Translations under genes and position numbers: made by a program
Notes under the pieces: model-generated
Seen by the model: only the letters and a program-made list of their open reading frames with translations
Databases searched by the model: none
Told to the model about the DNA's origin: nothing
DNA from: Marsupella aquatica
Lineage: Eukaryota; Plantae; Marchantiophyta
Length of the DNA: 64,000 nt
Direction: 5' to 3'
NCBI GenBank assembly: GCA_973895155.1
Contig: OZ316891.1
Span: 6,667,708 to 6,731,707, forward strand
Part shown: in pieces, positions 1-48,199 of the stretch
How positions within the stretch are numbered: the first letter of the stretch is position 1
Layout of the letters: every line of letters starts with the position of its first letter

Positions 1-20
1 TCCATGGGAGCTCGAAAAAG

Positions 21-260
21 CTAATTCCTTTCCCATACAAGGTAACCCCCAATCATGTCCTTCAAAAGTTCGCCATCTTCGCATAGAATGGTCTCGTCAA
101 AAACTTCCTCCAATAGAAGAAGAACTCTGTCCGCCCCAAGAGGAATATTGTGACAAACCCTGGAAGGATCAAGACTTATCACGCAACCTTTTCCAACCTG
201 TTTCTCACATATGCCTATAATAACTTGTCCGCCTTCCCTGATCCAGACTGTCGATGTCAC
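21..260 (-). CDS. C-terminal exon/fragment resembling the Transposase Tnp1/En/Spm-like (TnpA-associated) domain
   Basis: VGKGCVISLDPSRVCHNIPLGADRVLLLLEEVFDE...LKDMIGGYLVW matches the pattern G.v.s.dP...h..pLg...v.v..v...l.d.ig..i.W of CACTA/MULE accessory proteins. Confidence 0.55.
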   Translation of the reverse strand: MTSTVWIREGGQVIIGICEKQVGKGCVISLDPSRVCHNIPLGADRVLLLLEEVFDETILCEDGELLKDMIGGYLVWERN

Positions 261-295
261 CATAATAATTATGATCCTGCACATCAGAGAATATC

Positions 296-1120
296 ACTGT
301 AAGCGTACAGTCCTGTCACGTCCGTCAATTTCACTGCACTATTCTGTCACGTCGGTCAATAAGCAGAATATAGTCAATGCACTGCGCTGCACGCGACTGG
401 TCGCGTGACCCTAGAGGTACCACACATACCGGCAACAGACTATGCATGGTCCGTCAATCATGTCAAATGAATGAGAATGACCACAATCGATTACGATCAA
501 TCATTTCACATCCACTCAGAACAAATGAGTGGACAATCAGTAACTACTGAGGACAGTAGTGCTAATAAGCGCCAGTAAAACGTCCGTGAACTGCATTGTC
601 CTGTCACAACCATCAAGAAGTAGGCAGAATGTAGTCAATGCATTGCCCTGCATGCGACTAGTCGCGTGACCTTAGTCAGAGGGTGTAGGGATAACAGGGT
701 CTACGACGTAGAAGCTAGAAGGCTAGGCCCAAACTCTAGCTCATACTTGGTACTTCATAAGTAAGATACGATTGCGCGTGAGACAGGAAGATACAACTAC
801 GGATCTAAAGGCATGTCGCGTGACCTTAGTCAGAGGGTACAGGGTCTACGACGTAGAAGCTAGAAGGCTAGGCCCAAACTCTAGCTCGTAATTGGTACTT
901 CATAAGTAAGATACGATTGCGCGCGAGACAGGAAGATACAATTACGGATCTAAAGGCATCACACATATCGGTAAAGATAATGCATGGTCCGTCAGTCATT
1001 TCAAGTGAATGAGAACGACTACAATCGATTACGAACAATCATTTCAACTCCACTCAGGAAAAATGAGTGGACAGTACCAGTTTACCAATGAGTGGACACC
1101 GGACAGTCAGTAACTACTGA
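296..1120. repeat. Nested direct repeats: ~296-410 vs ~590-670, 661-813 vs 816-959, ~420-552 vs ~960-1120
   Basis: Near-identical blocks, e.g. gtcgcgtgaccttagtcagagggt...ggatctaaaggcat occurs twice in tandem. Confidence 0.85.
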
Positions 1121-1435
1121 CCTTCATAAGAAATCTCAGTACTTCACTAGCAATCAGTATTCCCGGGGCGGTCGCCAAACGTGAAATTAAAGCCATAATT
1201 AGAGGACAACTGAACTTCCCGCCAATTCTAATACGCGCCAGTCAAACGCGCACCCTCTTCTAGAAACCACTATGTACAATGACTAGTGGAGACTAAACAA
1301 TATAAAGCATTGAGATGATCCCTATTGCTCATTCCCCCACGCATTCCACTTTCTGGCTACTGGATAATCTATTCGTACATCAGCTCTCTCATTTCCAATT
1401 CTTAGTCTTGGTCAGCATCTCTTGTTTGAAGGGCG

Positions 1436-1978
1436 ATGACTACTCCGCTGAGCTCGAAGAATGAAGATATTCCGACGGACGATTCAGAAGGTTTGACGTA
1501 TCGAATTCGTGGTACTCCTTACAGAATGTGTCAGCGATGTAATATAATGTTTACGGTGACTAAATCGGGTAAAATGTTTTGTGAGAGACGACATTGTTCG
1601 CCACATTTGTCGATGGAAGATCAGATGGAGACCAATCCGACAGAGATGACTACAAAGATGGCACCAGGGGAGAAGTTAAAAGGCAAAGCCCTCGGGGAAT
1701 CCATTTCGAGGGGGGAGAAGTTGAAGGCCAGAGCATGCATCGAATCCATTTCGGGGGAAGCAGCAGCAGACGCTAAGACAGTCAAGAAGGAGGCCAAGAA
1801 AGTGGACGCACCGAAGAAAAGGCAATTAGAGATGAACGAAGATTCTGATTTGTATTACAGAAAGAGAAAGCCGAGAAAATCTATGGACGTTAGGACTTGG
1901 GCAAAGGAAGAATTTCTGGATTCAAGGGAATCCACACCAGACACCGATGAGTGGATGCCTTCATCTTGGAATGACTGA
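1436..1978 (+). CDS. Intronless 180-aa hypothetical protein with a CxxC...CxxxxC putative Zn finger and a basic NLS-like C-terminal part
   Basis: Open ATG-to-stop ORF containing CQRC..FCERRHC and RKRKPRK. TATAAAG at ~1301 upstream. Confidence 0.5.
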   Translation: MTTPLSSKNEDIPTDDSEGLTYRIRGTPYRMCQRCNIMFTVTKSGKMFCERRHCSPHLSMEDQMETNPTEMTTKMAPGEKLKGKALGESISRGEKLKARACIESISGEAAADAKTVKKEAKKVDAPKKRQLEMNEDSDLYYRKRKPRKSMDVRTWAKEEFLDSRESTPDTDEWMPSSWND

Positions 1979-2174
1979 CTCAATCGAAGTCAACAATATT
2001 TTGAGTAGTCGAAGATTAGAACTACAGATTCAAGAGTAGTTCAAGTTAGAACTTGTTATAGATACTGTGTAGCTTAAATTCCTGGATAGTGCTAGTGGAT
2101 ATGGATTCCACATCCGAAGTCCTTCGGGATCAATGTAACCATTTTTGTAATCAAGGAAAAATTCCTCTGACTAA

Positions 2175-3125
2175 CAATTCGCTAGGCTGTCGACTACAAC
2201 AAACAATATCAAAAAGACCTGCGATAAATTGGTTCACGCGACTGTGCGCGTGATGAACTACATGTGTAACCAAAAACAGGTCATCCTACTAACAAGTTGA
2301 GATCAGGCAGATCTGAGAAATAAAGCGCGATTACGTCTAAGAGTGCAGAGCTTTCGCTGACCTCTAAAACATTAATGCAATCGGGCGCGTGATGAAAAGA
2401 AGACCTCGGTTTTAAAATATATTTCTTGCCAATTCGCTGGGAAGTCGACTACAATAAACAATATCAAGATAAATTGGTTCACGCGACTGTGCGCGTGATG
2501 AACTACATGTGTAACCCAAAAAACAGGTCATCCTACTAACAAGTTGAGATCAGAAAGATCTAAGAAATAAAGGGCGATTACGTCTAAGAGTGCAGAGCTT
2601 TTGCTGACCTCTAAAACATTAACGCGACCGGTCGCGTGAATTAGAACTCGGTTTCAAAATAGATTTCTGGCCAATTCGCTAGGCTGTCGACTACAATAAA
2701 CAATATCAAAAGACACGAGATAAATTGGTTCATGCGACTGTGTGCGTGACGAACTACATGTGTAACCAAAAAACAGGTCATCCTACTAACAAGTTGAGAT
2801 CAGGAAGATCTGAGAAATAAAGGGTGATTACGTCTAAGAGTGCAGAGCTTTCGCTGATCTCTAAAACATTAACGCGACCGTGCGCGTGATGAAACGAAGA
2901 TGTTGGTTTTAAAATAGATTGCTGGCCAATTTGCTAGGCTGTCGACTACAATAAACAATATCAAAAGACACGAGATAAATTGGTTCACGCGACTGTGCGC
3001 GTGATGAACTACATGTGTAACCAAAAAACAGGTCATCCTACTAACAAGTTGAGATCAGGAAGATCTGAAAAATGGACCTCGATTACGTTTCGTTTTGCTA
3101 GGCCATCGACTACAATAAACAATAG
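2175..3125. repeat. ~250-bp tandem repeat, about 3.7 copies, two palindrome sites per unit
   Basis: Units start at about 2175, 2430, 2672 and 2927 with caattcgctaggctgtcgactacaa. Confidence 0.9.
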
Positions 3126-3974
3126 CAAAACATATGGACAACTATACGCGTACGCCATACAATTTTAGACTAGAGAATTCATTCGGATGTTCTACTAGTA
3201 CTTCTGATACATTGCTTATGTATTGGACTTGAAACACGGATTGATCAAAATCGGAGTGAGAAATTGGACCATAACTTCATTGACTCAATTCATGCATTGA
3301 ATGCGTGATTTAAGGCAACTACTCTCCTCATTTATTGCGGAATTAATGCTGATTGATACTTACAAGTTATTCAGTTGCATGTGGTCTCAGCAATGTTGGT
3401 GGCAACCCTTTGATGTTGGCGGAAACCCTCCTCCCAGCCAAGCCTCTTCCTTCCAGCGTAGCCTCCTCCTCGTCCCAGCCAACTAAGCCTCCTCCTTCAA
3501 ACTCCAATTTCCTTGAGTATCATGACCGAATCCCACCACCAAAGAATGACAACTTGTTGATCGTATCAAGATCAAAATCCTCGACCAGATAGTGATTTCA
3601 GAATAGCCGCTCTTTGTTGGTCCGCTAGAATGCTTCGATGAATAAGGCAGACTATGGAGGTTCTAAATCTTTGTCGTCTCGCTTCGTCGCAACTCTCCCG
3701 CTTGATCGGATGTGCTCTCCCCAAGATTGAAGGTGATACAACAAGAACTGCGCCAGCATTGCTTGAATGAGCTCCGCCTCCGACTGGAAAAAAATCCGGT
3801 TTGTTCAGTCGATGGTGGAGTGTACGGAGATCATCTAGAACCTTCCTGTCGCTAGGCTATTATTAGGGTTATGCTAAAACAATACCCTAATTAGTCCTTC
3901 CTTAGTGTCGGCGCCCACGGTCTCGAGTTCATTGTTCATTGTTGTTGTTTCTCGCTCCCAGACTTTTGCGCGCC

Positions 3975-4068
3975 TGCTCTCGTCACTCTCGCTCTCACTC
4001 TCGCTCTCGCTCTCGTCGCTCTCGCTCTCATCGCTCTTGCTCTCGCTCTCATCGCTCTCGCTCTCGCT
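3975..4068. repeat. (TCGCTC)n-like pyrimidine-rich microsatellite
   Basis: Visible directly. It produces the low-complexity SL/RA ORFs in this interval. Confidence 0.85.
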
Positions 4069-5150
4069 TCTGCCCTGGATTTCATTTTTGTCGTTGCAGG
4101 TCGTTCGTTGTGGTCAGGTGCTTGTCGGCGCGTTGCAGCTCTTAGTAGTTGTCCATCGTTTCGACCAGGAGCTCGTTGGCGCATTGCAGCTCGCATTTAC
4201 AGCTCGTATTCACTTCTAGTTTGCTAGTTCGTTGCAGCTAGCTTTTTGGGAGTGCTTGTATCAGCTCGTGTCAGCCAATTTTAAGCTCATATCAGCTCGA
4301 TCAACGTGTTTCAGCAGCTCAAACTACTTTTTGGCAGCTTGTTTTAGCTCCTTCCATTCAGCATTCAAGTTTGTTTCACCTCTTTGAATCTACAGGTTTA
4401 GTGCGCTTTTATTCATGCTCAGTTTGCCTATCCACAACTTTGATTGTACTTCTGAAAGAGTCTTTTTAACTCGACATAATGAGCTCCTTAGCATTAAGCA
4501 CATGTTATTCAATTGGTGGCAGCGAAGCTCTATGTATAGAAGTATAGAAGCTGTGTTGTTGTTGCTTAGCATATTAATATCTTCAATCTTATATTTACTT
4601 TCTGGAATGTCGCAGCAAGGTCTTCAAGTGCTTGGATGTCAATCTCTCAAACGATTACATCAATTTTTCAGAATTCAGGTATAATTTCTATATTTTCTGC
4701 TGGTGTTGATTGTGGTTTGCTAAAATTTCTCTTGATTGTTAAGCACAGTTTTCATAATGCGGTTTGTTTGTAAACTCAAATATGTGTGAATCATACAAAC
4801 TCACTAATTAAAATACAACCTGAATCGTCTTAAGTAAGTCATTACAAACTTGCACGTTGTGAATTTAATCATATAAACTCTCATGTTATGTGAATCTCAT
4901 TACACTGAATCCTTTAATTGACGAATACAACCAGTAGACTGCTAAATTGAATCATCTTAGCTGGATCATTCTCTAAACTTCTGATATATAATAGTTTCAC
5001 AATGACAGAGCTCAAACATCTGAATTATTGTAAAGTTCATGAATGAATACAAATGAATGAAATCATGCTTACTCGGATTTCCTTGTCCGTATGGGTCAGT
5101 AATCACAATTGTATCACTGTATTATCTTATTGTCCAAAAGTTGTTTGAGC

Positions 5151-6530
5151 TGTTGACGCGACTAGTCGCGTGAAAATACTATGAGGTTCCTTTTAGGACC
5201 AGTTGACGCGACCAGTCGCGTGTGAGAAGGAAACTGGATAGATTTAAATCTCCACAAGGAAGGTTTAGTGGATATAGTTGTTTAGGTTCAGTTGACACGA
5301 CCAGTCACGTCTGAGGTAGCTCTCTCATTGACTGGTTCTGTTAAAGGAGGTAAGATTCCTTTTAGGACCAGTTGACGCGACCAGTCGCGTGCCAGAAGGA
5401 AACAAGATAGATTTACTGAGCGCGTACCATATCCAAATCTCCACAAGGAAGGTTCAGTGGATATAGTTGTTTAGGTTCAGTTGATGCGACCAGTCGCGTC
5501 TGAGGTAGCTCTCTCATTGACTGGTTCTGTTAGAGGAGGTAAGGTTCCTTTTAGGACCAGTTGACGCGACCAATCGCGTCTGAGGTAGCTCTCTCATTGA
5601 CTGGTTCTGTTAGAGGAGGTAAGGTTCCTTTTAGGACCAGTTGACGCGACCAGTCGCGTGCCAGAAGGAAACAAGATAGATTTACTGAGCGCGTACCATA
5701 TCCAAATCTCCACAAGGAAGGTTCAGTGGATATAGTTGTTTAGGTTCAGTTGATGCGACCAGTCGCGTCTGAGGTAGCTCTCTCATTGACTGGTTCTGTT
5801 AGAGGAGGTAAGGTTCCTTTTAGGACCAGTTGACGCGACCAGTCGCGTGCCAGAAGGAAACAAGATAGATTTACTGAGTGCGTACCATATCCAAATCTCC
5901 ACAAGGAAGGTTCAGTGGATATAGTTGTTTAGGTTCAGTTGACGCGACCAGTCGCGTCTGAGGTAGCTCTCTCATTGACTGGTTCTGTTAGAGGAGGTAA
6001 GGTTCCTTTTAGGACCAGTTGACGTGACTAGTCGCGTCTGACGTAGATCTCTCATTGACTGGTTCTGTTAGAGGAGGTAAGGTTCCTTTTAGGACCAGTT
6101 GACGCGACCAGTCGCGTGTGAGAAGGAAACAGGATAGATTTACTGAGCGCGTACCATATCCAAATCTCCACAAGGAAGGTTCAGTGGATATAGTTGTTTA
6201 GGTTCAGTTGACGCGACCAGTCGCGTCTAAGGTAGCTCTCTCATTGACTGGTTCTGTTAGAGGAGGTAAGGTTTCTTTTAGGACCAGTTGACGTGACTAG
6301 TCGTGTCTGACGTAGATCTCTCATTGACTGGTTCTGTTAGAGGAGGTAAGGTTCCTTTTAGGACCAGTTGACGCGACCAGTCGCGTGTGAGAAGGAAACT
6401 GGATAGATTTACTGAGCGCGTACCATATCCAAATCTCCACAGAAGGTTCAGTGGATATAGTTGTTTAGGTTCAGTTGAGGCGACCAGTCGCGTCTGAGGT
6501 AGCTTTCTCATTGACTGGTTCTATTAGAGG
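5151..6530. repeat. Composite tandem array of 80-bp (A) and 109-bp (B) units, each starting AGTTGACGCGACCAGTCGCGT
   Basis: After a short lead unit at 5151, units start at about 5201(B), 5290(A), 5370(B), 5479(A), 5559(A), 5639(B), 5748(A), 5828(B), 5937(A), 6017(A), 6097(B), 6206(A), 6286(A), 6366(B), 6474(A). Confidence 0.95.
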
Positions 6531-6643
6531 ACGAAGACATTTATGATCAGTCTTTCAAAGAATTGTTTATGCATTCTGATTTGTAGATGCGACCAGTCGC
6601 GTGAAAATAATCTCTGGGATATATCATTTGGTTGAAAAGAGTC

Positions 6644-7195
6644 ATGGGCAAACCTGGTCTGGAGAGCTTCAGATATCTATGCCCAATATTTGACGTTTTG
6701 GACAGAAGCCAAGATGGTCTACTTGCGGGATATTCTGTATTTGTTGAAACACTACTACCTGGACTTCCAGATTTCATTGTCACGGAATTGATATGGCCTC
6801 GGATCCAGGAGACTTTTAATTCCTCGGCTAATGCAGGAAATTTCTCAATAAAGGAATTGGATGAGTTTGTAGGACTATCTTCGGTGTGTCGTAGATGGCG
6901 CCACCTTGTTAGGAATACCTATATTCTGGGTGTAATCAAGTTGAGTTTATTAGATTTGGCTTTCCCAGGAAATCCTACTAAACCGATCGGAAATGAGTCT
7001 CTCTCATCGACAGTTCAAAGTTTCTTCCAGAAATACCCAAGAATTAAATTCATGGGGTCAATGTCCAGAGATCTTAGGGAACTCTTCACGAAGACTTATG
7101 ATGCTCTTCACCCTCTTGAAAAATGGAAATTTACAGTCAGATGCCACGAAGTTGGATACCTTGAGGGTGACATCTACGCTTTTAAGGAATTCTAG
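6644..7195 (+). CDS. F-box-like protein, cassette 1
   Basis: TLLPGLPDFIVTELIWP...LSSVCRRWRHLV is a plant F-box signature with an internal insertion. The frame is open. Confidence 0.65.
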   Translation: MGKPGLESFRYLCPIFDVLDRSQDGLLAGYSVFVETLLPGLPDFIVTELIWPRIQETFNSSANAGNFSIKELDEFVGLSSVCRRWRHLVRNTYILGVIKLSLLDLAFPGNPTKPIGNESLSSTVQSFFQKYPRIKFMGSMSRDLRELFTKTYDALHPLEKWKFTVRCHEVGYLEGDIYAFKEF

Positions 7196-7260
7196 TTAAC
7201 TTACGTGATGAAGCGCGTCGTATGTCTTCTAACAATGTTTTGTGATATGATAAAAGCAGG

Positions 7261-7826
7261 ATGAGCCAACTTTTGAATGAGGCTCGAGATTTCCTTTCAT
7301 CTCATGAAAAGAAACAAAAAACAATATGGGATACGCTGGATAAACCTCCTCTAGTCTCATTGGAGGAATACAAGATGTTTTGGTCATTTCAAATATTTGG
7401 CCAATACTCTACGAACACTTTATTTCAATTAAAAGATTGCATGGATATCGACACCTCGATAACGATTTGGTTATCGATAGGGTCCGAGACCTTATTCGGC
7501 TTGGAGCTTATAGCAAGAAATGGAACTTTTTAGTTACAAATACAAGGTTATGGGCTATCCTCAAACAAGCAAACCGGATTATCGATGTCGCAAATGATGC
7601 TCTTTACGACATACCCGAAACTAAGGAGTTGGAGTTTGACTCAGTCTGTCGAGTTATTCGACAGGATATTTCTATGCTTCCAGAAATATCTGTTCTTGGG
7701 ACTACTACTTCTGACGAAATCGCATTGTTTACGAACAAATATAACAATTTAGATGAGGAAGAACGAGATGTCCTAATCGAAAGGTTTGGTAGATTTTCTC
7801 AGAATCTCGGTGGTCCCAGTTCTTAA
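7261..7826 (+). pseudogene. F-box-like protein, cassette 2 (frameshift near 7345)
   Basis: SLIGGIQDVLVISNIWP...LGAYSKKWNFLV aligns with cassettes 1 and 3. The ATG frame at 7261 shifts before the F-box. Confidence 0.55.
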
Positions 7827-7860
7827 TGGATAGGTTCTTGTTCTTAATCTTTTCCATATT

Positions 7861-8390
7861 ATGCTGCAGTCCTTTGACATGAATCGAAAATCTCATCGTC
7901 AAATGATGATGGAGCGCATTGCACGTGCAAAGGTTATGAACCGAAACATGATATGGAGTCAAGCTGAAGACCTGATACCCGGTCTTCCGGACGATATTGT
8001 CGAGAAATATATTTGGCCATTAGTCAAAGAGTTTTTCCACTGTCTTGGGAATTTGTCGGATACTGTGATTAAAAATTGGGTCATGGACTTGATCGCCATT
8101 CGAACATTCAGTAAGAAGTGGTGCCACATAGTTACTTATAGTAGTACTTGGGCGACGGTCACCTTGGTAGCTTACGACTTCACTGATAGACCAGGAATGA
8201 ATCACTTTGAAGGCATTTGACTTCACGGAGTGTAGCATTAAGATTTACAGAATCCATCAGAACTCTCCCGCCGCTGGACATTCTGGGTGGATTTGAAGGA
8301 TCTGAACTTGACACGTTTAGGAACCTTTGGTTTTGGTTAGATGAAGATGAGCGAGAAGATTGGGTCAGGATAAATGTTCCTAAAATGTAA
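7861..8390 (+). pseudogene. F-box-like protein, cassette 3 (frameshift near 8212)
   Basis: DLIPGLPDDIVEKYIWP...RTFSKKWCHIV. The shifted frame continues SIRTLPPLDILGG...LDEDERE, homologous to the cassette 2 C-terminus (ISMLPEISVLG...LDEEER). Confidence 0.6.
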
Positions 8391-9169
8391 TTCGGCACGA
8401 CGCGACCATGCGCGTGTTAGTATTTTATAATAAACGTTTAACTTTCAATATTTGTCTGTTTTAGAATGGATCCTACCGGAACCTCAAAGCGGAAAAGAGA
8501 CTCGTCTAAAGCTGCTTCTCGAAAGAAAGCCAAGACAAAAATGACTCCCGCGGAGACATCCATACTTGCATATCGAGGAAAGTCATCAGAGAGAGAACAA
8601 CGGAGACAAAGAGTATCCATCTCTTTGAATCGACTGAGATATCCAATTTTGGAATAGTCGTTCGCAATGGGGCTGTCCGTCTTGTGGTGGCAAGAAATGA
8701 TAAAGCTATAGTTTTGGAGAAATCAAAAATTCTCGGGTATTTCTTTGAGAAGAACATGAAAGTTAAAGAGTGTACAGAGGGATTGGTTCTGCTAGTCAGC
8801 GACGACCAGCAGGAAGACAAAATAAGCATTTGTTTGGATCGAACGCAATATGTAACCTTCAATCAGCCCAGAATCGATGATCTTCTAGGTGCAAGGCATG
8901 CCTTGGAAAAGGTTACTAGTGTGGGATATCCTTCCGATCCAGAGGCATCAACGGAAGATTTGATTTGTCAATACATTATTGACGTACTTGAGTTCCAGAG
9001 AGTTCCTTTCAACCAGGGATTTCGCTTGGGAAAGGCCCCGCCAGTTAGCAAGGTTGAAGTATACTCGGCGGAGAATCTTCCGAAAGTAATTACCTCAGCG
9101 AATGTCGGGGCTCTGTTCGATTCTTTCCTCAAAGAATATAGTGCTGTGAATATATTTAACAGCAAGTCA

Positions 9170-9600
9170 TTTTTTGTTGAGACATCACGTTGTCATCTTG
9201 CACTGGACCACATCAAGTGCCGAGAGTGGAATCAGGATTACACAAATAGGCTAAAGAATTCACTCCTCTCTCATTTGGCTATAAAGTTCGAGAAGCGATG
9301 CTGCTTTTTAGTCCCTGTGAAGTGGGTTCAGTCGGAGGCCGACAGAGATCCCGACTACAATGGGACACCCTACGATTCATCGTCAAAGGAGGAGGACATT
9401 ATGACCAGTCATTTCTGGATACTCGGAGGCCAGCACACAATAATGGCGTACAAATTCCTGAGAGAGGACGACAAAGTCAGCCAAGTTGTACGAGACGCTT
9501 GCGGTACTGTAGAAGCTGTAATGTTTTGGGCAACGCTCAACAACGACAATAATGTTCATTTGATGGGATTATCGAAAGCTTTGAACCACTGTCATCAAAC
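9170..9600 (+). other. ParB/Srx-like domain within the large gene
   Basis: VETSRCHL..HIKCREWNQDYTNRLKNSLL ... FWILGGQHTIMAYKFL ... VEAVMFW...LMGLSKALN follows the ParB N-terminal layout (R...L..Si ... iidG.HR..A ... lal.eN). The signature Arg is Thr here. Confidence 0.45.
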
Positions 9601-10619
9601 ATCAATGGAAGAAGGACAGTTTCTCACCATTGTACGATAGTGTCGTAATATCTGGAACTCATTTGGGCGGCCTGGATTACATTATCGTCATCCAAATTGG
9701 AAGGTAAATAAATAACCCTCTTCGATCACATTATCGTATAAACTTTTGTCACGCGACCGGTCGCGTCAATCTTAGAATTGTCATGTTTCCATTGTTTTTC
9801 AGGTATTTCTGAGAGCTACAAGTTTTGTTTGCCCATGGGCTCAAATGGGGAAGAACGAAATGATGAAATTTGGGGAATTGGCTCCGTTTCTCTTTACAAT
9901 GGAGGACGAAATATTCAAGAAGTGGATGGAGGTCTACGAACTATTAAGGACAGGAGAGCTTGTAATTTACAACGGAATTTTACAGAGGGACGCCGTCAAA
10001 ATTGCGGATAATCCGTGTGCTTATCATCTTCTGAAGAAGACGTTCCGTTCTTGTCAAGGGTGCTCAGACTCGGTTCTTCAAAAGGCAGCGGAATATATGT
10101 TGAGCGGAAGATTGTCTATACTCAAAAACTGAAGCATCAGAGTGAAATCTGGGAAGGCGAAGAAGTCCTCTGAGGCTCCAGTGTTGTCAACGACTAGCAT
10201 GAGTTTGGAGCAATTCTGTATAAAGAAGAAGACGAAAGTTGAGTTTGAGATTTTATTATTGAGTAAACTCAACGGGGAAACATCCACCCGGACGGAGCTG
10301 AAAAGTCTGACAGATTCAGGGCAAAAATATTGGGTCAAAGGAATGATTGATTGTTTTAAGCTCGACAAGATGGTGTTGAAGCAGTTGAGAGATGCGTTGA
10401 GTGGTTATCTGAAGAAGTGCTTAAATGTAAGTTATAGTAATGATAATTTGTTGAAGGAGATCGACCCTATATTCTACAGGTTGGTCGAAGGAATACAGAA
10501 ATCAGTTGATAGTCAAGGAAACCAACTAGTGCGGCCGGTCGATGAGAGGCTGAAATTGCGATCCCTGCAGGATATACAAAATGCTGGGTTTGCAGACTGT
10601 ATCATACTTGAAGACAAGA

Positions 10620-11245
10620 ACCTTGCGAGCTTGATTTATTTTGATCCCTCATCAATGGGAGATTTGCGTTCGCCAAATTGCTCATTCTATGAGGGGTTAT
10701 TTCGTGCTACTAGCGAGATAGGGGCAAAACCACACCATGTGGTTATTATTGTAGCCTCTCTCGTTGAGTCTTACTTAATCAAACGAGAATTAGGGAAGTA
10801 CACACACTACGTTGCTGTCGATAGCCATTATATTTAGAAGCGGCCGAAGGAGAAGAAGCTTATTGTAACCTACGCTTTTCACAGCTTGGCCTTCAGCACA
10901 ATGGGCGATCCACAAGCCCTCGAGTTCCAATTGGTCTCCAAATATCAAATTGAGAAGATAGCCAATTTTGAAGAGAGCGGCGAGTTCATGACACCTTTCC
11001 CAGAAAAGATACTTCCATTCTTTGAAAGTATTGTTAGTCAATTCGTCCAATGTGGGGAATGGGCTATATACTTCGGTGAGGGAACGAACTTGATCCAGTG
11101 CTTAATGGTAAGTTTTGAGATTTATATTTTGGGGTTTCGATTTTAAGATTATTTAGATTATTATATTCTCAATTAATATTGTGAACTAATTTCGGCTTTT
11201 TTTATAGGATGCTGGATCCAATGTAAAATATTACTGCCCTATGGC
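10620..11245 (+). other. Degenerate amino (N4C/N6A) DNA methyltransferase-like region
   Basis: ASLIYFDPSS resembles the DLIxTDPPY motif IV. PEKILPFFESIVSQFVQCGEWAIYFGEG...CLMDAGSNVKY resembles KPxxLxxxIxxFSxxGDxVLDPFxGSG...LGRxxIG. The motifs are in beta-class order and the catalytic and SAM motifs are degraded. Confidence 0.35.
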
Positions 11246-11949
11246 AACGCATAGGGAGTTGTCTTGTTTCTTGCAACACACCACGGCGACAATTGATACA
11301 ACGCTGTCATTGATTGACCCAGTACGGGCTAGTATAGAAAAATGTATAGATAAATTAATGAAGTACCGTCCATCCGTAACTGCTCTCAGGGCTGATGTTT
11401 TGGATGTCCTCCACGAACAACATATCCTTGATAATATTTGTAATCAATTATTGCAAGAGTATGCACTCTCTGAAGATTCCGATCGATTGTACATTTGACC
11501 AACGGAGTACCCTAGTAGGCCAATCCAAGGTAAGTTACTTTTGAAACCTCTTACTTTTTATTGCGTCACGCAAATATGCGCGTGGATATTCATAACATTT
11601 CTTTTCACGCGAATATGCGCGTGAGTCATTCTTATCAAATTATCTGATTTTATTCAGATCAAGTCGACTGCGGCTTCAATGTTGAGGATGTAGGGAGCAA
11701 TGGTGATGCGGATGGTGAGGGGGAAAATGACGCGGAAGGTGACACGAATGGGGATGTCAATGACCAAGATCCAGAGTGGATGACCGATACGCTAAACAAC
11801 GTCGGAGATTCCGACAATAGAGGAGATGAAGAGAGTGACGGAGAGGAGATGAAGGATGCTGAGAACGCTGATAAAGAGGACAAGGAGATGGAGGGTTCCG
11901 AGGACGATGAGGACTCTGATGAAGAGGCCACACAGGAGCCTCGATATGA

Positions 11950-12720
11950 GGTGGACCGAGAGGAGGCGGCCCGACAGGAGGAGGCCAGAGAGGAGGCCGC
12001 CCGGTAGTACGCGGCCCGGCAGCAGGAGGCCAGAGAGGATGCGGCCCGACAGGATGCGGCCCGGTAGGAGGGGGCCCGGCAGGTGGCGGCCCGACATGAC
12101 TCCGCCAGGCTGGAGGAGGCCCGGCAGGAGGCGGCCCGGAAAGAGGAGCTTCAAAAGAAGGAGGCGGCCGGGCAAGAGGAGCTTCAAAAGAATGAGGTTA
12201 AGAAGAAAAAGGCAGCAGCTAGAAAAGCAACTACCGCGAAGAAGAAGGAGAAAGCCGAGGTTGAGAATGCCCAGGCTGAGAAAGCCCAGGCTGAGAATGC
12301 CCAGGCTGAGAAAGCCCAGGTGGAGAAAGCGGATGCCGAGAAAGCCCAGGCTGAGAAAGCCAAGGCGGAGAAAGCAGAGGCTGAGAAAGCCCAGGCTGAG
12401 AAAGTGGAGGCTGAGAAAGCGGAGGCTGAGAAAGCCCAGGCTGAGAAAGCCCAGGCTGAGAAGCAGGCTGAGAAAGCCCAGGCGGAGAAAGCGGAGGCCG
12501 AGAACGCGGAGGATGCGAGAGTCCTTTTAGTGACAGAGGAAAATAGGGCCTCGGCGGAGAGTGTGGCGGCTGAGAGGCTACTGGCCGAGAGGAGCGGACG
12601 AGACCGCAAGACCGGAGAGGGTGGAGGTGGAGAAGTTGGAGGCGGAAAAGGTCGATTCCGCAAGACTGGAGAGAGAAGAAGCCGCAAGACTGGAGGCAGC
12701 GAGGAAGGAGGCCGAGAGGG
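11950..12720 (+). repeat. Coding minisatellites: 18-bp (EEAARQ-like) and 15-bp (AEKAQ) units forming a long coiled-coil linker
   Basis: gaggaggcggcccggcag and gctgagaaagcccag arrays. Confidence 0.85.
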
Positions 12721-13537
12721 CCAAGGATCTTTCGCTTATTCCTGAGGCACAACATCTACCAAAAATAAGGCTGAATTTGAAGAAGCCTTCTTCACCCTCA
12801 GTTGTAGTTAAGAAGAAAATATTAGACTATTTTCTTCGCCCGGAGTTTGAATTTAACGATCCACCCTTAAGTACGGTCTCGTTGGATGATTGGAATAAAT
12901 ATTCACCGGAGCAGCTCCGAGTCCAGGCAGTCCTTGCTTTGCAATATTGGAAGGGTCTTTTGATTACCGAGGAGAAGACTGCCACTGCATCCAGAATGGA
13001 GACAATCATCAATAATGTGCGTTTTTCCGAGAATCGAGTGCAAGACCTGGGAACGTTTTTGGCACCAGACTCGGCTCAAGTCGTTAAGAGACTAACAGTT
13101 GACTTGACGCGACCGGGTTCGTGGTCTCGACCCCGATATATTGCAGAGGTGACTCGTGCAGAAATTATGGCACCGGATATTTTGGAATCGGATTCCCAGA
13201 TTGTGGAATATTTGAATCAAATGCCACAACCATTTGAAGGTCTTCCCGCCTCATCGCTCCAACCTTCACAAACTGGTCCGGTGGAGCGATCACTGCGGTC
13301 TCAAGGAGGGCTGAAGGATGTTGTTGCGATTGAGGGACCCAAGAGATCAGTTGCGAAAAGGCCGGATCCACCCAATCCAAAGGTCATTCGCAAGCTATAT
13401 TAAGCTTAAAGTTTCTATTATAGACGTCATTATTTTATTATTGATCTGTTATTGTTTCTGTTTTCTAAGGCTACAACCCTTAGGCTACAACCTCAGTACG
13501 TTATTTGAAGGCGTACTGAAATCTCTGTTTTTTGCAG

Positions 13538-14326
13538 TTTTTTGAAAATTTGGCTAGTCGAATAGATCAATGCCTTGATCCTTCTAAGGATATGGAAGAG
13601 CTATTGACCAAGTTCTTACAACACTCGATCAAGAGGAAACATATGATATGTTTGAGACCGCGCGAGTTGCTCACCGATGATATAATTAACGTTTATTTGA
13701 GTTTTCTCGAACTGATTCTCGATAGAGTTGGAAAGTCAGACCTTGTCAAATTCTTCCAAACACACCATTTTGAGCTTCTCTCCATGGATCCTACCATTTT
13801 CAACGAGGAGAGGGCAGCTTGGACAAAGGAGTTTCCGCTAAAAATCAGTGAATACGACAAACTGGTCTTTCCAGTACACAATGCTATGAAAGAACATTGG
13901 TCATTGGTAGTCTTGTATCCGAAGGAGAAACGGCTGGAGTACCTAGATTCTCTAGTTCATAATCGACAGAATCCTGGGGTGCTAGATATTGTTGGGAAGT
14001 ATTACGCCGACGAAATTGGCTGGAGAACTGGTGTCAACTTGGATCTCTCAGGTTGGGAACGGATATATCGGAATGATATTCCTCACCAGAGTGACGGCCA
14101 CAGTTGTGGTGTATTTATCTTGAGATACGCCAAGTGCTTGTGTCAAGGAAACGGAATTAATTTTGCCGTGGATCAAATTGAGAAATTCCGTAGGGAGATA
14201 GTCTTGTCGTTATTTGACATGGACTTCCGCAAGCTGACATTCGCAAGTAACCTAGTTACCGGGATCCGTGCTGCTATGATTGACATTTTTGGCGGAATTC
14301 CAGCACTGAACGACCATCTTGTACAG
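13538..14326 (+). CDS. Ulp1-like C48 (SUMO/Ubl-specific) protease exon
   Basis: LTDDIINVYL, EHWSLVV (His), YLDSL (Asp) and PHQSDGHSCGVF (oxyanion Gln, Cys) are present. The triad is intact and the frame is open. Confidence 0.85.
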
Positions 14327-14412
14327 GTAATACACTTCATTTTAGTGTCTCTCTTTGTAGTCACATGACCGTTCGCGTTATAAACTTATTTTCATTTCTT
14401 AATGTTTTACAG

Positions 14413-15319
14413 AAGCCTATCCCGAAACCCCCTGATCGAGTATCGAAGGCACCAGTCCGGAAGTCCGGTGATCGTCCGGAGGCGGGAAACAAACAGACCG
14501 TTCTAGTACATTCTCCAAACCCTGCGGCACAAAAATCACAGGTACAGATGGCGCCTAATCCATTGGCAAAGAAGTCACCGGTTCAGAAGAGACTTGTAAT
14601 TTTTGATCTGAATCGGGTACTTATCTGGTCAGAGAAGATCAGCCCTGGGATGCCCATTCGGTCAAGGGGTGTGAGACAGATGCACAAGGTTATCTATCCA
14701 AGGCCTGATTTAATGGAATTTCTTGAGAAGGTGGCAGATCTATACGACATTGCGATCTGGTCGTGCATGTTCAAACGGAATATTCTATCTTGTGTAAGGC
14801 TGATACTTCGACCCAAAGTTTTGAAACGTATTAAATTTATATGGGGACAAGAATCAACTCGACTTATTGGGAAGAATAATAATGACATCCCTTTATTTGT
14901 CAAATGTCTCTCGGACATTGCCACCGATATTAAAGATTACAACATCGAGAATGTCATTCTTATCGATGATGCTACATATAAGACGAGCCTTAATGACTTC
15001 TATTCATCGTTGTATCCCGATGCATATTCTGGGCTCGATGATGACCTATTTTTTTAGAAAGAAACTATATCCATATCTATGCGACATGTCAATTGACAAG
15101 TTGACATTCCGCGAGCTCCTTAGTGGATATGGGATTCCAACGTTCTCTCAAGAAAATCTTGAGAAAGATTATATTGATAAGACGAATCTTTGGAGGAGAA
15201 ACGTGATCATTCATAATCAGGGGAATAAAGACCATTTAGAAAAGTTTGACGAATTTATGAAATACTTATCTGCCGAGAAAGACCGTGCTATAGAAGCCCG
15301 GGATAAGTCCAATAAGTAA
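14413..15319 (+). pseudogene. FCP1/NIF-like HAD phosphatase cassette 1 (frameshift in T-run near 15050)
   Basis: LVIFDLNRVLI, YPRPDLMEFL, DIAIWS, FIWGQE, FVKCL, NVILIDD..YK. Acceptor ttttacag at 14412. Confidence 0.75.
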
Positions 15320-15444
15320 ACGTTTATTGTTTATTATCAATTATTATTTATAAATTGATTGAAATTGAACTTTTGGGAGTGACGCGCCCGGTCGCGTGGT
15401 TGTTTGCAATTGCATAATATGAGAATCGAATTGTTCATTTACAG

Positions 15445-16152
15445 GTGTCTAAGTGGAGCAGGTCGTGTCAACTTCTAGTTTTAGGACTGGAAAACTTCCT
15501 GTGCTCTGTTTCAAAATATACTCCTCAGCTCAAGTCGACACCCGGAATTCGTATCGGATCTCTATGTGTCGTTCCGAGGCCGCATCTTCATGATCTTATA
15601 AAATTCTGTTATGATCATTTTGATGTGATGGTCTGGTCTATTCTCGACGATAAACTGGTTTATTAGATACTTTCAGAAGTGTTGTCGAGCACCGACCTGT
15701 CGCAGCTGATATATGTGTTCACGCGGGATCATTGCTGGAATCTTGGTTATGTGAAGAAAAATTATAAGACTGTTGTCTTCAAATCTATCGAGAGACTACG
15801 TGATATGTTTCAAGATTATCGACCAGAGAATATAATCCAGATTGATGCCTATCCTTCCCATACATGCCAGACAGCTGTATGCGGATTATTGTTCACTAAG
15901 TCGTTTCAAGGATCGTTGGATGATGTCTTTTTGAGGGATGACCTCATTCCATATTTACGAAAGCTATCAAATTCAGGGCTTTATCTTGCGTTTGCTAACA
16001 AGTTCGATTATCCCATCTGGTCGATTAGAAATCTACATCGAGATTGGGATCTGAACGAGGATATATGGGAGCATCTGTACGTGCAGAGACATGCAGATCA
16101 AGTTCTTATCAAGCACTTCAACAGACGTCACTTATCAATGGCGAGAGTGTAG
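15445..16152 (+). pseudogene. FCP1/NIF-like HAD cassette 2 (catalytic Asp lost; in-frame TAG at 15664)
   Basis: LLVLGLENFL, PRPHLHDLIKFC, DVMVWS, VFKSI, NIIQID. No ATG; acceptor tttacag at 15444. Confidence 0.7.
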
Positions 16153-16238
16153 AGGATGTTTTCTCTGTAATATGTGACGCGACCATTCGCGTGACTACAT
16201 CCATACGGGCTCATGCATCTTCTTGTGTTTCTCTACAG

Positions 16239-16967
16239 GAGATTCATTGCAGCAGAGAAAATGGGCTCATAGTTTTAGACGTGGAGCATCTACTCTGTTA
16301 CACTGCACCGCATTCCCGACTGATGGCGGTCTCAACTGGAATTCGGATTGAGAATATATACGTTTTTCCAAGGCCTCATCTTCACAAATTCTTGAGATTC
16401 TGTTTTGAGAATTTCGATGTAGGGATCTGGTCCTCTCTTGGGAAGAACCTTTTAGATCAGATTTTAGCATCTATTTTTACTACGATGGAAATGGCCTCAT
16501 TTAAGTATATTTGGGATCAGTCTCATTGTTACTTATGCGATGGGGTGACATCAAATAAGCGGATATTTTTGAAGTGTTTTGAGAAGGTTGGAATTTATAC
16601 GAAGGCGTATCTGCAACAAAATATAATGCTTATCGAATCCGATGCATTTCATGCTTGTTTAGATCTTGTTGTTGGATCATTATTTCCGCCCAAATATTTT
16701 GGGTCGGTCGACGACAGTTTCCTGATTAACTTGCTGATTCCGTATCTTAGCAAGCTAGCAAACTCTTGTGAGCCGCTTGTCATTGCCAATGGAAGAGATT
16801 ATCCAGATTGGTCAGTTAAATCTATTTTTAGAGATTATGATTATAATCATACTCTATGGGAAGACCCTGTGATTCAGAGGCATGGAGATAGATATCTAGT
16901 AGAGCAATTTAACAGACGCCCAATTTTGGACGCTTCCAAAATAATAGTCGGCATGAGATCAGATTAA
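16239..16967 (+). CDS. FCP1/NIF-like HAD cassette 3
   Basis: LIVLDVEHLL, FPRPHLHKFLRFC, DVGIWSS, YIWDQSHC, IFLKCF, NIMLIE. No ATG; acceptor ctctacag at 16238. Confidence 0.75.
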   Translation, partial: EIHCSRENGLIVLDVEHLLCYTAPHSRLMAVSTGIRIENIYVFPRPHLHKFLRFCFENFDVGIWSSLGKNLLDQILASIFTTMEMASFKYIWDQSHCYLCDGVTSNKRIFLKCFEKVGIYTKAYLQQNIMLIESDAFHACLDLVVGSLFPPKYFGSVDDSFLINLLIPYLSKLANSCEPLVIANGRDYPDWSVKSIFRDYDYNHTLWEDPVIQRHGDRYLVEQFNRRPILDASKIIVGMRSD

Positions 16968-18636
16968 TTTGTATGTCGTTCTAGAAACTATTTGTAAACT
17001 CCTTATATACTGGTTATCATATATAAAGGATCTCAAAGATTTATTTCTCTATTATTATTATTCGCGTGAGCATGTCTCTTGGTCCCGTCAAGTTGGATTG
17101 GTAAAAATGTGATGTTGCAGTCATTTTCAGGGTTTCACGCGCAGCCACGCGTCATGTCGCCCCTTTTTTATTAAAATAATAATATTTAGTGATTTTCGGA
17201 ATTTCCAAAGTTCAGTTTTCCTTAAATTGGGGTTTTTAGGGAAAAAGTAACGTTGAAAGTATTGTCAAAACAGGAATGCATAGTGTTCAGCTAGTGTGAC
17301 CACAAATCTTTGGTGACAGGCCTGGTTTAGTTATTTGATACAGTCTCATACACATCTGACATCCAAGGGGTCACTTACCCTCTCTATCGAAGTAGTCAAA
17401 GGGTTATCAAAGACCTCTCTAACAGGTGATAATCAGGGAATATCTTGTTTGGAAGTCTTGGTGACTTACGAGGAGCTTGCAATTTGAGCCCGTACAGCCA
17501 TTGAAGCTGGGGTTGAATGTTAACTCACCCGGGATTGACTGTACAGAAAACTCTACTACATTTGTTTAGGTGCCAGTCAAAACAATACTAACTTAATTTC
17601 AATAAAACACACACTCATCCTTGTCAACCAAACACTAACAAATATGGCCTCCACTGTACTCTATGATATACAATGATAGGTGCACATTTAGCTTCATGAT
17701 TCAGTCCGATTTGAGCCGGCAAGAAAGTGCTAGATAATACTGATTGCACCCTCTCTGCATACCTGAGTTCACAGTTGTACCCTGACACTTCTCCTGGTTG
17801 CCCTTTGTTTCTGCTTGTATTTAATGGGGACCAACAAATTGGACATGATTCATGTCCTCCCCTCATCCCAGAGTTAGGGAAACCTACTTTGTACAAAGAG
17901 TTGATATTAAGTGCCTGCCAACCTAAATCAGGGGAAGAGTAATGGGATTAAGCACTCAATATAAATTTTCAGCTTGAAATACATACAGAGCCTTTTCTAA
18001 TGGGTTGGAGGCCCGAACTAGTGTGTAGAGACTCCAACTTGTTGTGCAAACTGGTGTTGTCAATTACCTCCTCCTCTCTTATGCTAACTTGTCCTCTGTA
18101 TTTGTTTTTTGAGTTGCGCAAAGTCCATGTTATTAGGGCAGTGTTCCATTAATCCTCAAAGAGTTTGTCCTTATAATTTCCACAAATCTTGAGCAAGATC
18201 TAAGCCATTATTCTTTCAGGGCAACCATCAAGTTTCTAATCAAGAATGGCTGTGCAGGAGCTAGAGCCTTCCATTACACTTCTCTTGCCTCAACTCCTTC
18301 AGAATTGCAGGAGCCAGAACATACCCTTGTTTCCTTTTCTTAATATCATTCTCTAGTGTAATATGTAACACTGAGAGAAACTAAAGTTTTATTAAATTAA
18401 GTGTGGGTTGTTAATGTTCAAGTCAATACCAGTTTTGCAAACCGGAAGGTCCGTCTGTGTTCTTTTTTGTTCTTTGTGACTCAAGTTAGGTAAAAAATTA
18501 AAAATGAGTATGACTTATTTGATCCCCTTTCTATATTTTTAGGGTTTGCATTTGTCCTCTTCTTTTGAGTTTGATATTTGTCCTCTTTAGCTTTATTTGT
18601 TCAACTCACTTATTCCTTTGCTAAACTTTGGTTTAT

Positions 18637-32338: not shown

Positions 32339-33028
32339 ATGGCCGTGCCAACTCATTTCAAAGTCCTCTTCGGTGTCTTTGTCCTGGCAGCTGTAGGCCT
32401 GGACTATATCGGAGCCACCGATCCAGACCCACTTCAAGACTTTTGTGTTGCAGATTTGAATGCTGGTGGCCCCACTGTGAACGGCTACCCATGCGTTGCA
32501 CCAGAACTCGTGACAACTGAGGACTTTGCATATTCTGGGCTGGCAATGGCTGCAAATCTGACTGGAGATCCCCTTCAGGGAAGTGGAAAATTCGCTTTCG
32601 TCGATCTGTGGCCGGCCCTCAATACCCTGGGACTGGCCCTTGCTAGGCTGGACATCAATCCCGGTGGCATCATACCGCCACACACCCACAACTTGGCGAC
32701 CGAGATCCTCTTCTGCATAAAAGGAGAGATCTACACAGGATTCGTCACCAATAGCAACAATGCCGCTGTCCCTAACAAGCTCTACGCGAAAATCGTCAAG
32801 AAGGGGGAGGCGTTCATTTTTCCAAGAGGTCTGCTGCACTTCCAACTCAACAAGGGTACAAAGCCTGCCGCGAGCATCAATGTGCTGAATGGGCAGAACC
32901 CTGGTGTTCAGCTAATGTCGGCGGCGTTGTTTGGGGCCGGGATTGATCCTGAGCTTCTCGCTAAATCATTCTTCATCTCCGAGGCCCAGGTGGCCAATAT
33001 GTCTGCCACCATAAAACAATTTTCCTGA
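32339..33028 (+). CDS. Germin-like protein (cupin), secreted, intronless CDS
   Basis: Signal peptide, DPDPLQDFCVAD, NGYPC, NTLG, PPHTH..ATE, FPRGLLHFQ. Metal ligands His, His, Glu, His are retained. Confidence 0.95.
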   Translation: MAVPTHFKVLFGVFVLAAVGLDYIGATDPDPLQDFCVADLNAGGPTVNGYPCVAPELVTTEDFAYSGLAMAANLTGDPLQGSGKFAFVDLWPALNTLGLALARLDINPGGIIPPHTHNLATEILFCIKGEIYTGFVTNSNNAAVPNKLYAKIVKKGEAFIFPRGLLHFQLNKGTKPAASINVLNGQNPGVQLMSAALFGAGIDPELLAKSFFISEAQVANMSATIKQFS

Positions 33029-48196: not shown

Positions 48197-48199
48197 TCA

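What the first reader, a model, noticed from the sequence alone, without database searches (positions are those of the whole stretch)
390..17153. Element-wide 18-bp palindrome (SACGCG-N6-CGCGTS, ~35 copies) in arrays, introns and spacers: candidate self-recognition or anti-silencing system
Seen: copies at 390, 651, 2235, 2480, 2621, 2731, 2871, 2986, 16 in the 5155-6495 array, 6586, 7202 (between F-box 1 and 2), 8399 (before the large gene), 9750 (intron 1), 11567 and 11606 (intron 3), 13106 (partial, coding), 14362 (intron after Ulp1), 15381 and 16176 (before HAD cassettes 2 and 3), and 17136. The half-sites and the 6-bp spacing are conserved while the central 6 bp vary (ACCAGT, ACTGTG, AATATG, ATGAAG, CAGCCA). 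That fits a dimeric protein site better than an RNA hairpin. Most copies keep their four CpGs even though the flanking CDS shows C>T decay. I saw none in the other 47 kb. Established: Arabidopsis VANDAL elements accumulate VANC-binding motifs in non-coding tandem repeats for sequence-specific anti-silencing, Spm TnpA binds repeated element motifs, and bacterial ParB binds palindromic parS. Inference: an element-encoded protein, with the ParB-like/MTase-like/Ulp1 fusion as the obvious candidate, binds these sites and coats the element.
Basis: partly seen in the sequence, partly recalled or inferred. Interest (0 to 1): 0.88.

Follow-up and report, generated by a model that had tools for sequence, protein, structure and literature searches.

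The report
Plant transposon with ParB-type self-tags
A broken copy of a multi-copy jumping gene, probably from a liverwort, carries 36 copies of one mirror-image DNA word almost only in its non-coding parts and encodes a protein predicted to have the fold of bacterial ParB, so the element likely marks its own DNA for its own protein, an idea proposed for red-algal transposons but untested.

Summary
There are 22 exact ACGCG-N6-CGCGT sites (0.01 expected) and 36 credible ones, all in 0.4-17.2 kb; only spacer 6 occurs. That stretch is a multi-copy element ending at 17232/17234. In its gene-dense half, 10 of 11 sites lie in the 12% that is non-coding. Other copies have tandemly duplicated single sites.

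Two corrections. The centre is not free: the half-site is TSACGCG-M-M-Y. Motif CpGs are not better kept than neighbouring CpGs (11 of 86 against 6 of 36 decayed). The two arms vary independently, which favours a double-stranded protein site over a hairpin.

The large gene's first exon is predicted to fold as a PH-like plus a ParB/Srx domain (Z 8.4), followed by an Ulp1 protease and three NIF domains. The ParB nucleotide-binding arginine is absent (0 of 10), and the HTH and methyltransferase-like parts could not be confirmed.

Best reading: binding sites for an element-encoded dimer, most likely the ParB-fold protein, perhaps for anti-silencing. Binding is untested. The concept is in print for red-algal Plavaka elements; my searches found no land-plant case. 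Superfamily unresolved.

The parts
1..17234 (.). Multi-copy DNA element, decayed copy; left end and any transposase lie outside the window; right end ...AAATTGGGG (17232) followed by TT
   Evidence: Contig depth 496-2758 across the element against 20 in the flank (run X1); contigs with different flanks leave the window sequence behind 17234 in 4 of 4 runs
21..293 (-). Short ORF resembling by eye the Tnp1/En-Spm C-terminal domain (motif recalled, not confirmed)
   Evidence: ORF; no Pfam, PHROG or NCBIfam support
391..667 (.). Two palindrome sites (391, 652)
1436..1978 (+). Intact 180-aa ORF with a Cys/His cluster and a charged tail; alternative candidate binder
   Evidence: no family
2175..3073 (.). 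255-bp tandem array with 7 sites (2236, 2375, 2481, 2622, 2732, 2872, 2987)
5155..6531 (.). Array of 80- and 109-bp units, one site per unit, 16 sites
6587..6602 (.). Site before F-box-like ORF 1
6644..8390 (+). Three F-box-like ORFs (weak Pfam hits for two, the third by eye), with site 7203 between ORFs 1 and 2
   Evidence: E 0.004 and 0.007, below the curated cut-offs
8400..8415 (.). Site 51 nt before the start codon of the large gene; tandemly duplicated in some other copies
   Evidence: joint 8416 to 8376
8466..9703 (+). Large gene exon 1: PH-like domain (about 8615-9007, weak) and ParB/Srx-fold domain (about 9155-9604); one frameshift and one stop in this copy
9751..9766 (.). Site in intron 1 (9704-9802); tandemly duplicated in some other copies
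   Evidence: joint 9778 to 9744 in two runs
9803..11529 (+). Exons 2-3: helical region (HTH position by analogy, unconfirmed) and an alpha/beta region with degenerate methyltransferase-like motifs (unconfirmed)
   Evidence: homologues P0001, P0002, P0027; model pLDDT 46; generic alpha/beta matches only
11568..11622 (.). Two sites 39 bp apart in intron 3 (11530-11657)
11658..13403 (+). Exon 4: acidic and charged repeats; holds the only coding-region site (13107, right arm degenerate)
13538..14326 (+). Ulp1/C48 SUMO-protease domain; His, Asp and Cys motifs present (motifs recalled)
   Evidence: PF02902, E 2.7e-19
14363..14378 (.). Decayed site in the intron after Ulp1 (14327-14412)
14413..16967 (+). 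Three NIF/FCP1-type domains (from 14413, 15445 and 16239), each after an AG acceptor, none with an intact DxD motif (motif recalled); sites 15382 and 16177 precede the second and third
   Evidence: PF03031, E 2.4e-10, 8.7e-11, 3.9e-14
17137..17152 (.). Last site, 80 bp inside the right end; kept by the majority of contig depth in 4 of 4 runs

Best explanation
The palindrome lies throughout one multi-copy transposon, almost only in non-coding DNA, and is likely the binding site of a two-fold symmetric protein that the element encodes, most likely the large protein predicted to have a ParB fold. Shown: 36 sites, never more than 2.2 kb apart, in two arrays and in 9 of 12 non-coding gaps of the gene-dense half; two abutting half-sites (TSACGCGMMY) whose variable letters change independently; sites multiplied by short tandem duplications. 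Predicted: a PH-like plus ParB/Srx fold in exon 1, fused in one reading frame to an Ulp1 protease and a NIF domain. Inferred and untested: the protein dimer binds each site, the even spacing lets it cover the whole element, and the tethered SUMO protease acts on nearby chromatin or silencing proteins so that family members, and only they, stay expressed. It would work like VANC in logic and like ParB-parS in hardware, though probably without the standard CTP switch. This copy is dead and has decayed like methylated DNA.
For: Confinement and spacing. 10 of 11 sites in 6532-17232 lie in the 12.4% non-coding part, binomial P 2e-9 on my own annotation. No arm-to-arm covariation at the outer S position: 6 of 17 pair, 7.3 expected. 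Of 15 joints shown (135 not shown), 3 are tandem duplications inside the element and 2 of these are 35-41 bp and span a site. Model pLDDT 81.8; the 8 chains with Z of 5 or more among 48,161 are all ParB/Srx-fold proteins, best PadC Z 8.4, rmsd 2.8, 99 aligned, and KorB Z 8.0 (fold membership of Atu1540, SerK and SbnI partly recalled); the Foldseek top 10 are Noc, ParB, PadC and Srx. ParB-type proteins bind 16-bp inverted repeats, in tandem arrays or dispersed (PMC3177203 passages). The same pairing of a ParB-like gene with inverted-repeat arrays is reported in red-algal Plavaka elements. Element CpG o/e is 0.92 against 0.49-0.61 in the flanks and the copia element.
Against: No binding or methylation data. 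Foldseek E-values do not reach 0.001 in PDB, and Z near 8 is borderline by the tool's own note. The ParB fold also occurs in enzymes that do not bind DNA (Srx, SerK, SbnI). The Box II arginine needed for nucleotide binding is Thr or Ser in 10 of 10 sequences. An HTH could not be shown. Motif CpGs decay as fast as other CpGs in the arrays, and this copy's differences are enriched at CG and CHG (16 of 24, against 37% of cytosines), so it was probably methylated. High CpG content could reflect a young or fast-turning family. Three non-coding gaps have no site, and minor copies lose part of site 15382. No second element with DNA could be obtained to test protein-motif co-variation. The element's left part is unseen and may encode the true binder.
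Confidence: 0.5

Rival explanations
1. The sites are bound by another protein of the element: a TnpA-like factor or the transposase encoded left of the window, or the 1436 ORF. The ParB-fold protein is then an unrelated accessory enzyme.
For: TnpA proteins bind clustered family-specific motifs and cause local hypomethylation (10.64898/2026.08.24.746577, section 4). A Tnp1-like ORF is seen by eye at 21-293 and ORF 1436 is intact. No HTH was shown in the ParB-fold protein.
Against: TnpA binding is confined to the termini and its reported motif is not palindromic; here only 1 of 36 sites is near the known end. The Tnp1 label has no profile support. The 16-bp two-fold geometry matches ParB sites.
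Confidence: 0.25
2. The element has accumulated sites for a host transcription factor (CGCG-box or FHY3/FAR1-type CACGCGC readers; both motifs recalled) to recruit activation.
For: The half-site holds CGCG, and several right arms read CACGCGC on the other strand.
Against: Strict pairing at one spacing out of 16 tested; no full site in 47 kb of host DNA with at least two genes; few lone half-sites, 16 positions in the element.
Confidence: 0.1
3. The palindrome acts as an RNA hairpin or splicing signal: 7 sites end 34-49 nt before an AG acceptor, and the element seems to use many alternative acceptors.
For: Distances; the site forms a local stem in the lowest-energy fold of 5 of the 7 motif-bearing segments. 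Inner position 7 pairs in 12 of 17 contexts against 8.0 expected (P 0.013, one of six tests).
Against: The outer S pairs in only 6 of 17, often G with G or C with C, while T is kept further out. The position-7 excess rests on a duplicated pair and on letters that differ in most other copies. Only 1 of 7 segments folds clearly better than shuffles (z -3.9, two sites pairing with each other); the next is -1.9. The introns are 86-128 nt, so the middle is the only free place. 25 sites lie left of the F-box region. No Rfam match.
Confidence: 0.1
4. The motif is a neutral by-product of tandem duplication of one ancestral palindrome.
For: 23 of 36 sites are in two arrays; CpG decay in sites is not reduced in this copy.
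Against: About 17 separate contexts with unrelated flanks, including introns of 86-128 nt; avoidance of coding DNA; the two arrays share the motif but otherwise have different units.
Confidence: 0.04

Closest known systems
Red-algal Plavaka elements with accessory gene PAG3 (10.1101/2025.02.11.637652; section 8 and passages read)
   Same: Giant (17-19 kb) DNA transposon; accessory protein with an N-terminal ParB-like domain fused to a possible chromatin effector; arrays of inverted repeats in the element; self-binding proposed and untested; an N6-adenine methylase-like gene in the same cassette.
   Different: Here a land plant; the effectors are Ulp1, NIF and PH-like domains rather than a 2OG oxygenase and SET; sites are also dispersed through introns and spacers, not only in arrays beside the gene; the terminus is GGGG(TT); sequence homology to PAG3 was not tested.
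VANDAL/VANC anti-silencing system of Arabidopsis (PMC5735166 and PMC10398659 passages)
   Same: Short family-specific motif in introns, intergenic and terminal non-coding DNA, multiplied in tandem repeats; accessory gene on the same element.
   Different: VANC motifs are 8-9-bp non-palindromic words (YAGTATTAY, AGTTGTMC); no VANC-type family hit in the element proteins scanned; hypomethylation is shown for VANC and not here.
Bacterial ParB/Noc/KorB/SopB with parS-type 16-bp inverted repeats (PMC3177203 and PMC12704722 passages)
   Same: Predicted fold of the N-terminal domain; 16-bp two-fold site, in tandem arrays and dispersed; Box III asparagine in register.
   Different: Box II arginine absent; HTH and C-terminal dimerisation domain not shown; no ParA partner seen in the window; eukaryotic, intron-containing gene.
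Spm/CACTA TnpA (10.64898/2026.08.24.746577, sections 4, 6, 21)
   Same: Element-encoded regulator binding clustered motifs; multi-acceptor gene structure is plausible here; Ulp1 cargo occurs in CACTA and MULE elements (PMC2528002 passages).
   Different: TnpA acts at the termini through a double HTH, and TnpA-like proteins are described as restricted to flowering plants; the terminus here is not the CA..TG usual for the CMCT clade (PMC12730594 passage).
DUF3723 proteins of fungal Starships
   Same: Nearest clusters by language-model features, score 0.92; common transposon accessory gene of unknown function.
   Different: The recognition value was below the tool's threshold, so this is a lead only; no Pfam DUF3723 hit.

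Membership tests
ParB/Srx (ParB-CTPase) fold | N-terminal domain fold | tested here: met
   Model pLDDT 81.8; PadC Z 8.4, KorB Z 8.0; all 8 chains with Z of 5 or more are of this fold; Foldseek top hits agree but at E 0.008 or weaker
Canonical CTP-clamp ParB | Box II GxxR arginine | tested here: not met
   GQHT or GQHS in 10 of 10 sequences; invariant GSRR in 5 of 5 SopB/ParB sequences
Canonical CTP-clamp ParB | HTH DNA-binding domain after the NTD | tested here: inconclusive
   Model pLDDT 46; profile comparison aligned only the Box III helix, probability 0.5%; no HTH_ParB hit
Canonical CTP-clamp ParB | Binds 16-bp inverted repeats and spreads | not testable with these tools
   Site geometry matches; binding needs an experiment
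Canonical CTP-clamp ParB | ParA partner gene | tested here: inconclusive
   None among the element proteins scanned; the left part of the element is outside the window
VANDAL/VANC | Motif concentrated in non-coding DNA and tandem repeats | tested here: met
VANDAL/VANC | Mutator-type transposase and a VANC homologue | tested here: inconclusive
   No such Pfam hit in the pieces scanned; transposase not in the window
VANDAL/VANC | Protein-induced loss of DNA methylation | not testable with these tools
   Indirect signs conflict: high element CpG o/e but no protection of motif CpGs
Plavaka/EnSpm (CMCT) with PAG cassette | CA..TG termini and 2-5 bp TSD | tested here: not met
   The right end is GGGG(TT), not TG; PMC12730594 says CA..TG holds in most cases only; the TSD is unknown without the left end
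Plavaka/EnSpm (CMCT) with PAG cassette | EnSpm/Plavaka DDE transposase | not testable with these tools
   Outside the window; no genome held
Plavaka/EnSpm (CMCT) with PAG cassette | ParB-like accessory gene with inverted-repeat arrays | tested here: met
   homology to PAG3 itself not tested
N4/N6 DNA methyltransferase | Fold with DPPY and FxGxG motifs (motifs recalled) | tested here: inconclusive
   Candidate motifs read DPSS/DCSV/DSTL and FGEG/FSEG; no profile or fold support
Ulp1/Peptidase C48 | Domain above the curated cut-off | tested here: met
   70.3 bits against 20.7

The most novel reading that the evidence does not exclude
Eukaryotic transposons have repeatedly taken over the bacterial ParB-parS module as a private address system. 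In this liverwort-type element the ParB-fold protein loads at palindromes placed every 1-2 kb, coats the element and delivers a SUMO protease and swappable NIF modules that undo SUMO-dependent silencing: a land-plant anti-silencing system independent of VANC and TnpA.
Probability: 0.25. Interest if true: 0.85.

Novelty: new variant of a known kind. Interest (0 to 1): 0.6.

Why it matters
[quoted passage not shown] A ParB-fold protein with parS-like sites would be a further, unrelated route of bacterial or phage origin. This element gives a sharply defined site, a candidate protein and a multi-copy family in a lineage where reporters can be tested, so the untested Plavaka-PAG3 idea becomes directly testable in a land plant. 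A positive result might also suggest a function for the DUF3723 genes of Starships (a weak link here) and offer a sequence-specific tool for targeting chromatin.

Tried and rejected
No genome is held, so no genome-wide motif scan. No RNA holder listed among the runs; this says nothing on expression. Homologue searches: exon 1 among longer proteins, none; exon 2, 2 hits; the third search covered only 30-48 aa proteins and was uninformative. Of 26 hits, I left P0012 and P0023 out of all alignments as repeat or bacterial chance matches. Related loci: 2 in metagenomes, one bacterial and weak, one 1.2 kb and apparently decayed, neither with a repeated palindrome; none in viral or prokaryote contigs. 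The core 18-mer in viral contigs gave 9 single hits and no array, read as chance. The second structure model was too poor for HTH or methyltransferase claims; profile comparisons with SopB/ParB and with one plasmid methylase were not significant. No PDB sequence match, no Atlas hit for P0001, no phage match, only E 1-5 plasmid matches, no Rfam match. No homodimer prediction was obtained, so dimer formation is open. Rejected: free central spacer; selective CpG protection; hairpin as the main function; filing as CACTA, MULE, Helitron or piggyBac from the right end alone. Literature searches for a land-plant case found none; the library lacks most subscription papers, and supplements of the red-algal preprint (terminal motifs, repeat sequences) could not be seen and may bear on how close the two systems are.


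Full report
Observation. The pattern ACGCG-N6-CGCGT occurs 22 times between 391 and 17152, against 0.01 expected. Eight more sites have one mismatch, no other spacer from 0 to 15 gives a hit, and nothing exact or near-exact lies in the remaining 47 kb. 23 lie in two tandem arrays, so there are about 17 separate contexts.

Shape of the motif. In 32 half-sites from 16 separate contexts the consensus is T-S-ACGCG-M-M-Y, so the site is two abutting half-sites and the centre is constrained, not free. Most mismatches in the cores are C>T or G>A at CpG. The arms vary independently: the outer S pairs in 6 of 17 contexts, 7.3 expected. One inner position pairs more than expected (12 of 17, P 0.013, one of six tests), but this rests on a duplicated pair and on letters that differ in most other copies. 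One of 7 motif-bearing segments folds clearly better than shuffles, and Rfam has no match. A double-stranded protein site fits best.

The element. No genome is held, so I used public runs. Contig depth over 1-17.1 kb is 496-2758 in run X1 against 20 in the flank, with the same contrast in X2 and X4. The tool warns that depth is no copy number; tens of copies is my inference. In 4 of 4 runs contigs leave the window sequence behind 17234 with different flanks, so the element ends in AAATTGGGG followed by TT, which is either part of the end or a fixed target. The left end and any transposase are outside the window. The terminus is not the CA..TG usual for the CACTA clade (PMC12730594 passage), and the Tnp1-like ORF has no profile support, so the superfamily stays open. 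This copy has stops and frameshifts; 16 of 24 listed A/T-for-G/C differences are in CG or CHG context, against 37% of cytosines (40 of 1353 rows were shown, and the direction is assumed), as expected for methylated plant DNA. The host is a land plant with introns, a BMS1-like and a germin-like gene. The only homologues with an organism name are two proteins of the liverwort Calypogeia fissa, so a liverwort host is likely but not shown.

Placement. From 6532 to 17232, 10 of 11 sites lie in the 12.4% that I annotate as non-coding; 9 of 12 gaps hold a site, and introns 2 and 4 and one F-box spacer do not. The longest site-free stretch is 2169 bp; the single coding site (13107) falls near the middle of what would otherwise be a 2.76-kb gap. 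Other copies show continued local amplification: of 15 joints shown (135 hidden), three are tandem duplications in the element, and two of them, 41 and 35 bp long, span sites 8400 and 9751. This copy has the same kind of pair in intron 3. Against strict conservation, minor copies lose part of site 15382 and 9-23% of depth carries C>T in site 17137.

Proteins. Ulp1 and three NIF domains are clear Pfam hits; two F-box hits are weak. Exon 1 has 26 hits among 1.84 billion representatives, mostly unnamed fragments, many of which stop matching at the same point as intron 1. Its model (pLDDT 81.8) has a weakly PH-like part (Z up to 4.8) and a ParB/Srx-fold part: PadC Z 8.4, KorB Z 8.0, and all 8 chains with Z of 5 or more belong to that fold. 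Foldseek ranks Noc and ParB first but only at E 0.008-0.07; in viral models the top hit is a phage DNA methylase at E 0.001, among many ParB-named proteins. The Box II arginine, whose loss abolishes nucleotide binding (PMC12704722 passage), is Thr or Ser in 10 of 10 sequences. The helices that follow sit where ParB has its HTH, but the second model was poor (pLDDT 46) and neither fold searches nor profile comparisons confirmed an HTH or a methyltransferase. The profile test did place the Box III helix in register, above 30 of 30 column shuffles, at negligible probability.

Mechanism. Shown: a family-confined, non-coding, evenly spread, self-amplifying two-fold site. Predicted: a ParB-type fold fused to a SUMO protease. 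Inferred: the element's own dimer binds the sites (about 0.75 for some element protein, 0.5 for the ParB-fold one) and works against silencing (about 0.3). The element-wide CpG o/e of 0.92 against 0.49-0.61 nearby fits long-term low methylation of active copies, but also a young family. Rivals are another element protein (0.25), a host factor (0.1), an RNA or splicing signal (0.1) and neutral duplication (0.04).

Comparison. VANC binds short non-palindromic motifs in non-coding tandem repeats (PMC5735166 and PMC10398659, passages). TnpA binds clustered motifs at termini (10.64898/2026.08.24.746577, abstract and sections 4, 6, 21). SopB binds a 16-bp inverted repeat in 43-bp units (PMC3177203 passages). 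The closest case is red-algal Plavaka PAG3, a ParB-like accessory protein beside arrays of inverted repeats, proposed to bind and modify its own element (10.1101/2025.02.11.637652, section 8 read; listed). Four unchecked earlier findings of this scan describe similar pairings in other genomes, two in fungal hAT elements and one in a probable protist. They led me to read that preprint and lowered my novelty rating; they are leads, not support. The ParB survey has no occurrence of 'plant' or 'transpos' in its main text. Ulp1 cargo alone is ordinary in plant CACTA and MULE elements (PMC2528002 passages). PMC4738411 and PMC13229309 (passages) and two Starship papers (passages) gave background only. 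My searches found no land-plant transposon with a ParB-like gene and palindromes; the library is incomplete and the preprint's supplements were not seen.

Verdict. A real and striking feature. It works, most likely, like VANC in logic and like ParB-parS in hardware, but it cannot be filed as a VANDAL, a canonical ParB or a Plavaka. New variant of a recently proposed and untested kind; interest 0.6.

Noticed in passing
window 686-700: 15 bases identical to the start of the I-SceI recognition site (site recalled), at the beginning of the first of two 145-bp repeats and absent from the second; probably chance.
   Followed up: partly
window 7259, 7868, 8464, 15444, 16238: AG acceptors sit just before the start of F-box-like ORFs 2 and 3 and the large gene, and before NIF domains 2 and 3, suggesting one transcript with many alternative exons and swappable last exons.
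   Followed up: partly
window 1-17232: The whole element, coding parts included (0.89), is hardly depleted of CpG (0.92), unlike the flanks (0.59, 0.49) and the copia element (0.61).
   Followed up: partly
window 17169-17234: Other contigs share only the last 65 or so bases and differ further inside, so other families or deleted forms use the same terminus.
   Followed up: no
window 3350-3834, minus strand: Decayed reading frame of about 150 codons with several stops, pointing away from a CT-rich stretch at 3976-4068; possibly a first exon of a leftward gene.
   Followed up: partly
window 8579-9637: The language-model neighbours of the ParB-fold exon are fungal DUF3723 clusters and an unnamed cnidarian cluster; the two Starship papers checked do not mention ParB.
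   Followed up: partly
window 17257-17291: A second small low-copy repeat lies just right of the element's end.
   Followed up: no
window 19239-20484: GC-rich 628-bp direct duplication, 96-99% identical.
   Followed up: no
window 23008-27201, 32324-33028, 45862-49034: Host BMS1-like gene pieces, a germin-like gene, and a copia-type element (label by eye) with 128-nt terminal repeats 96% identical.
   Followed up: no
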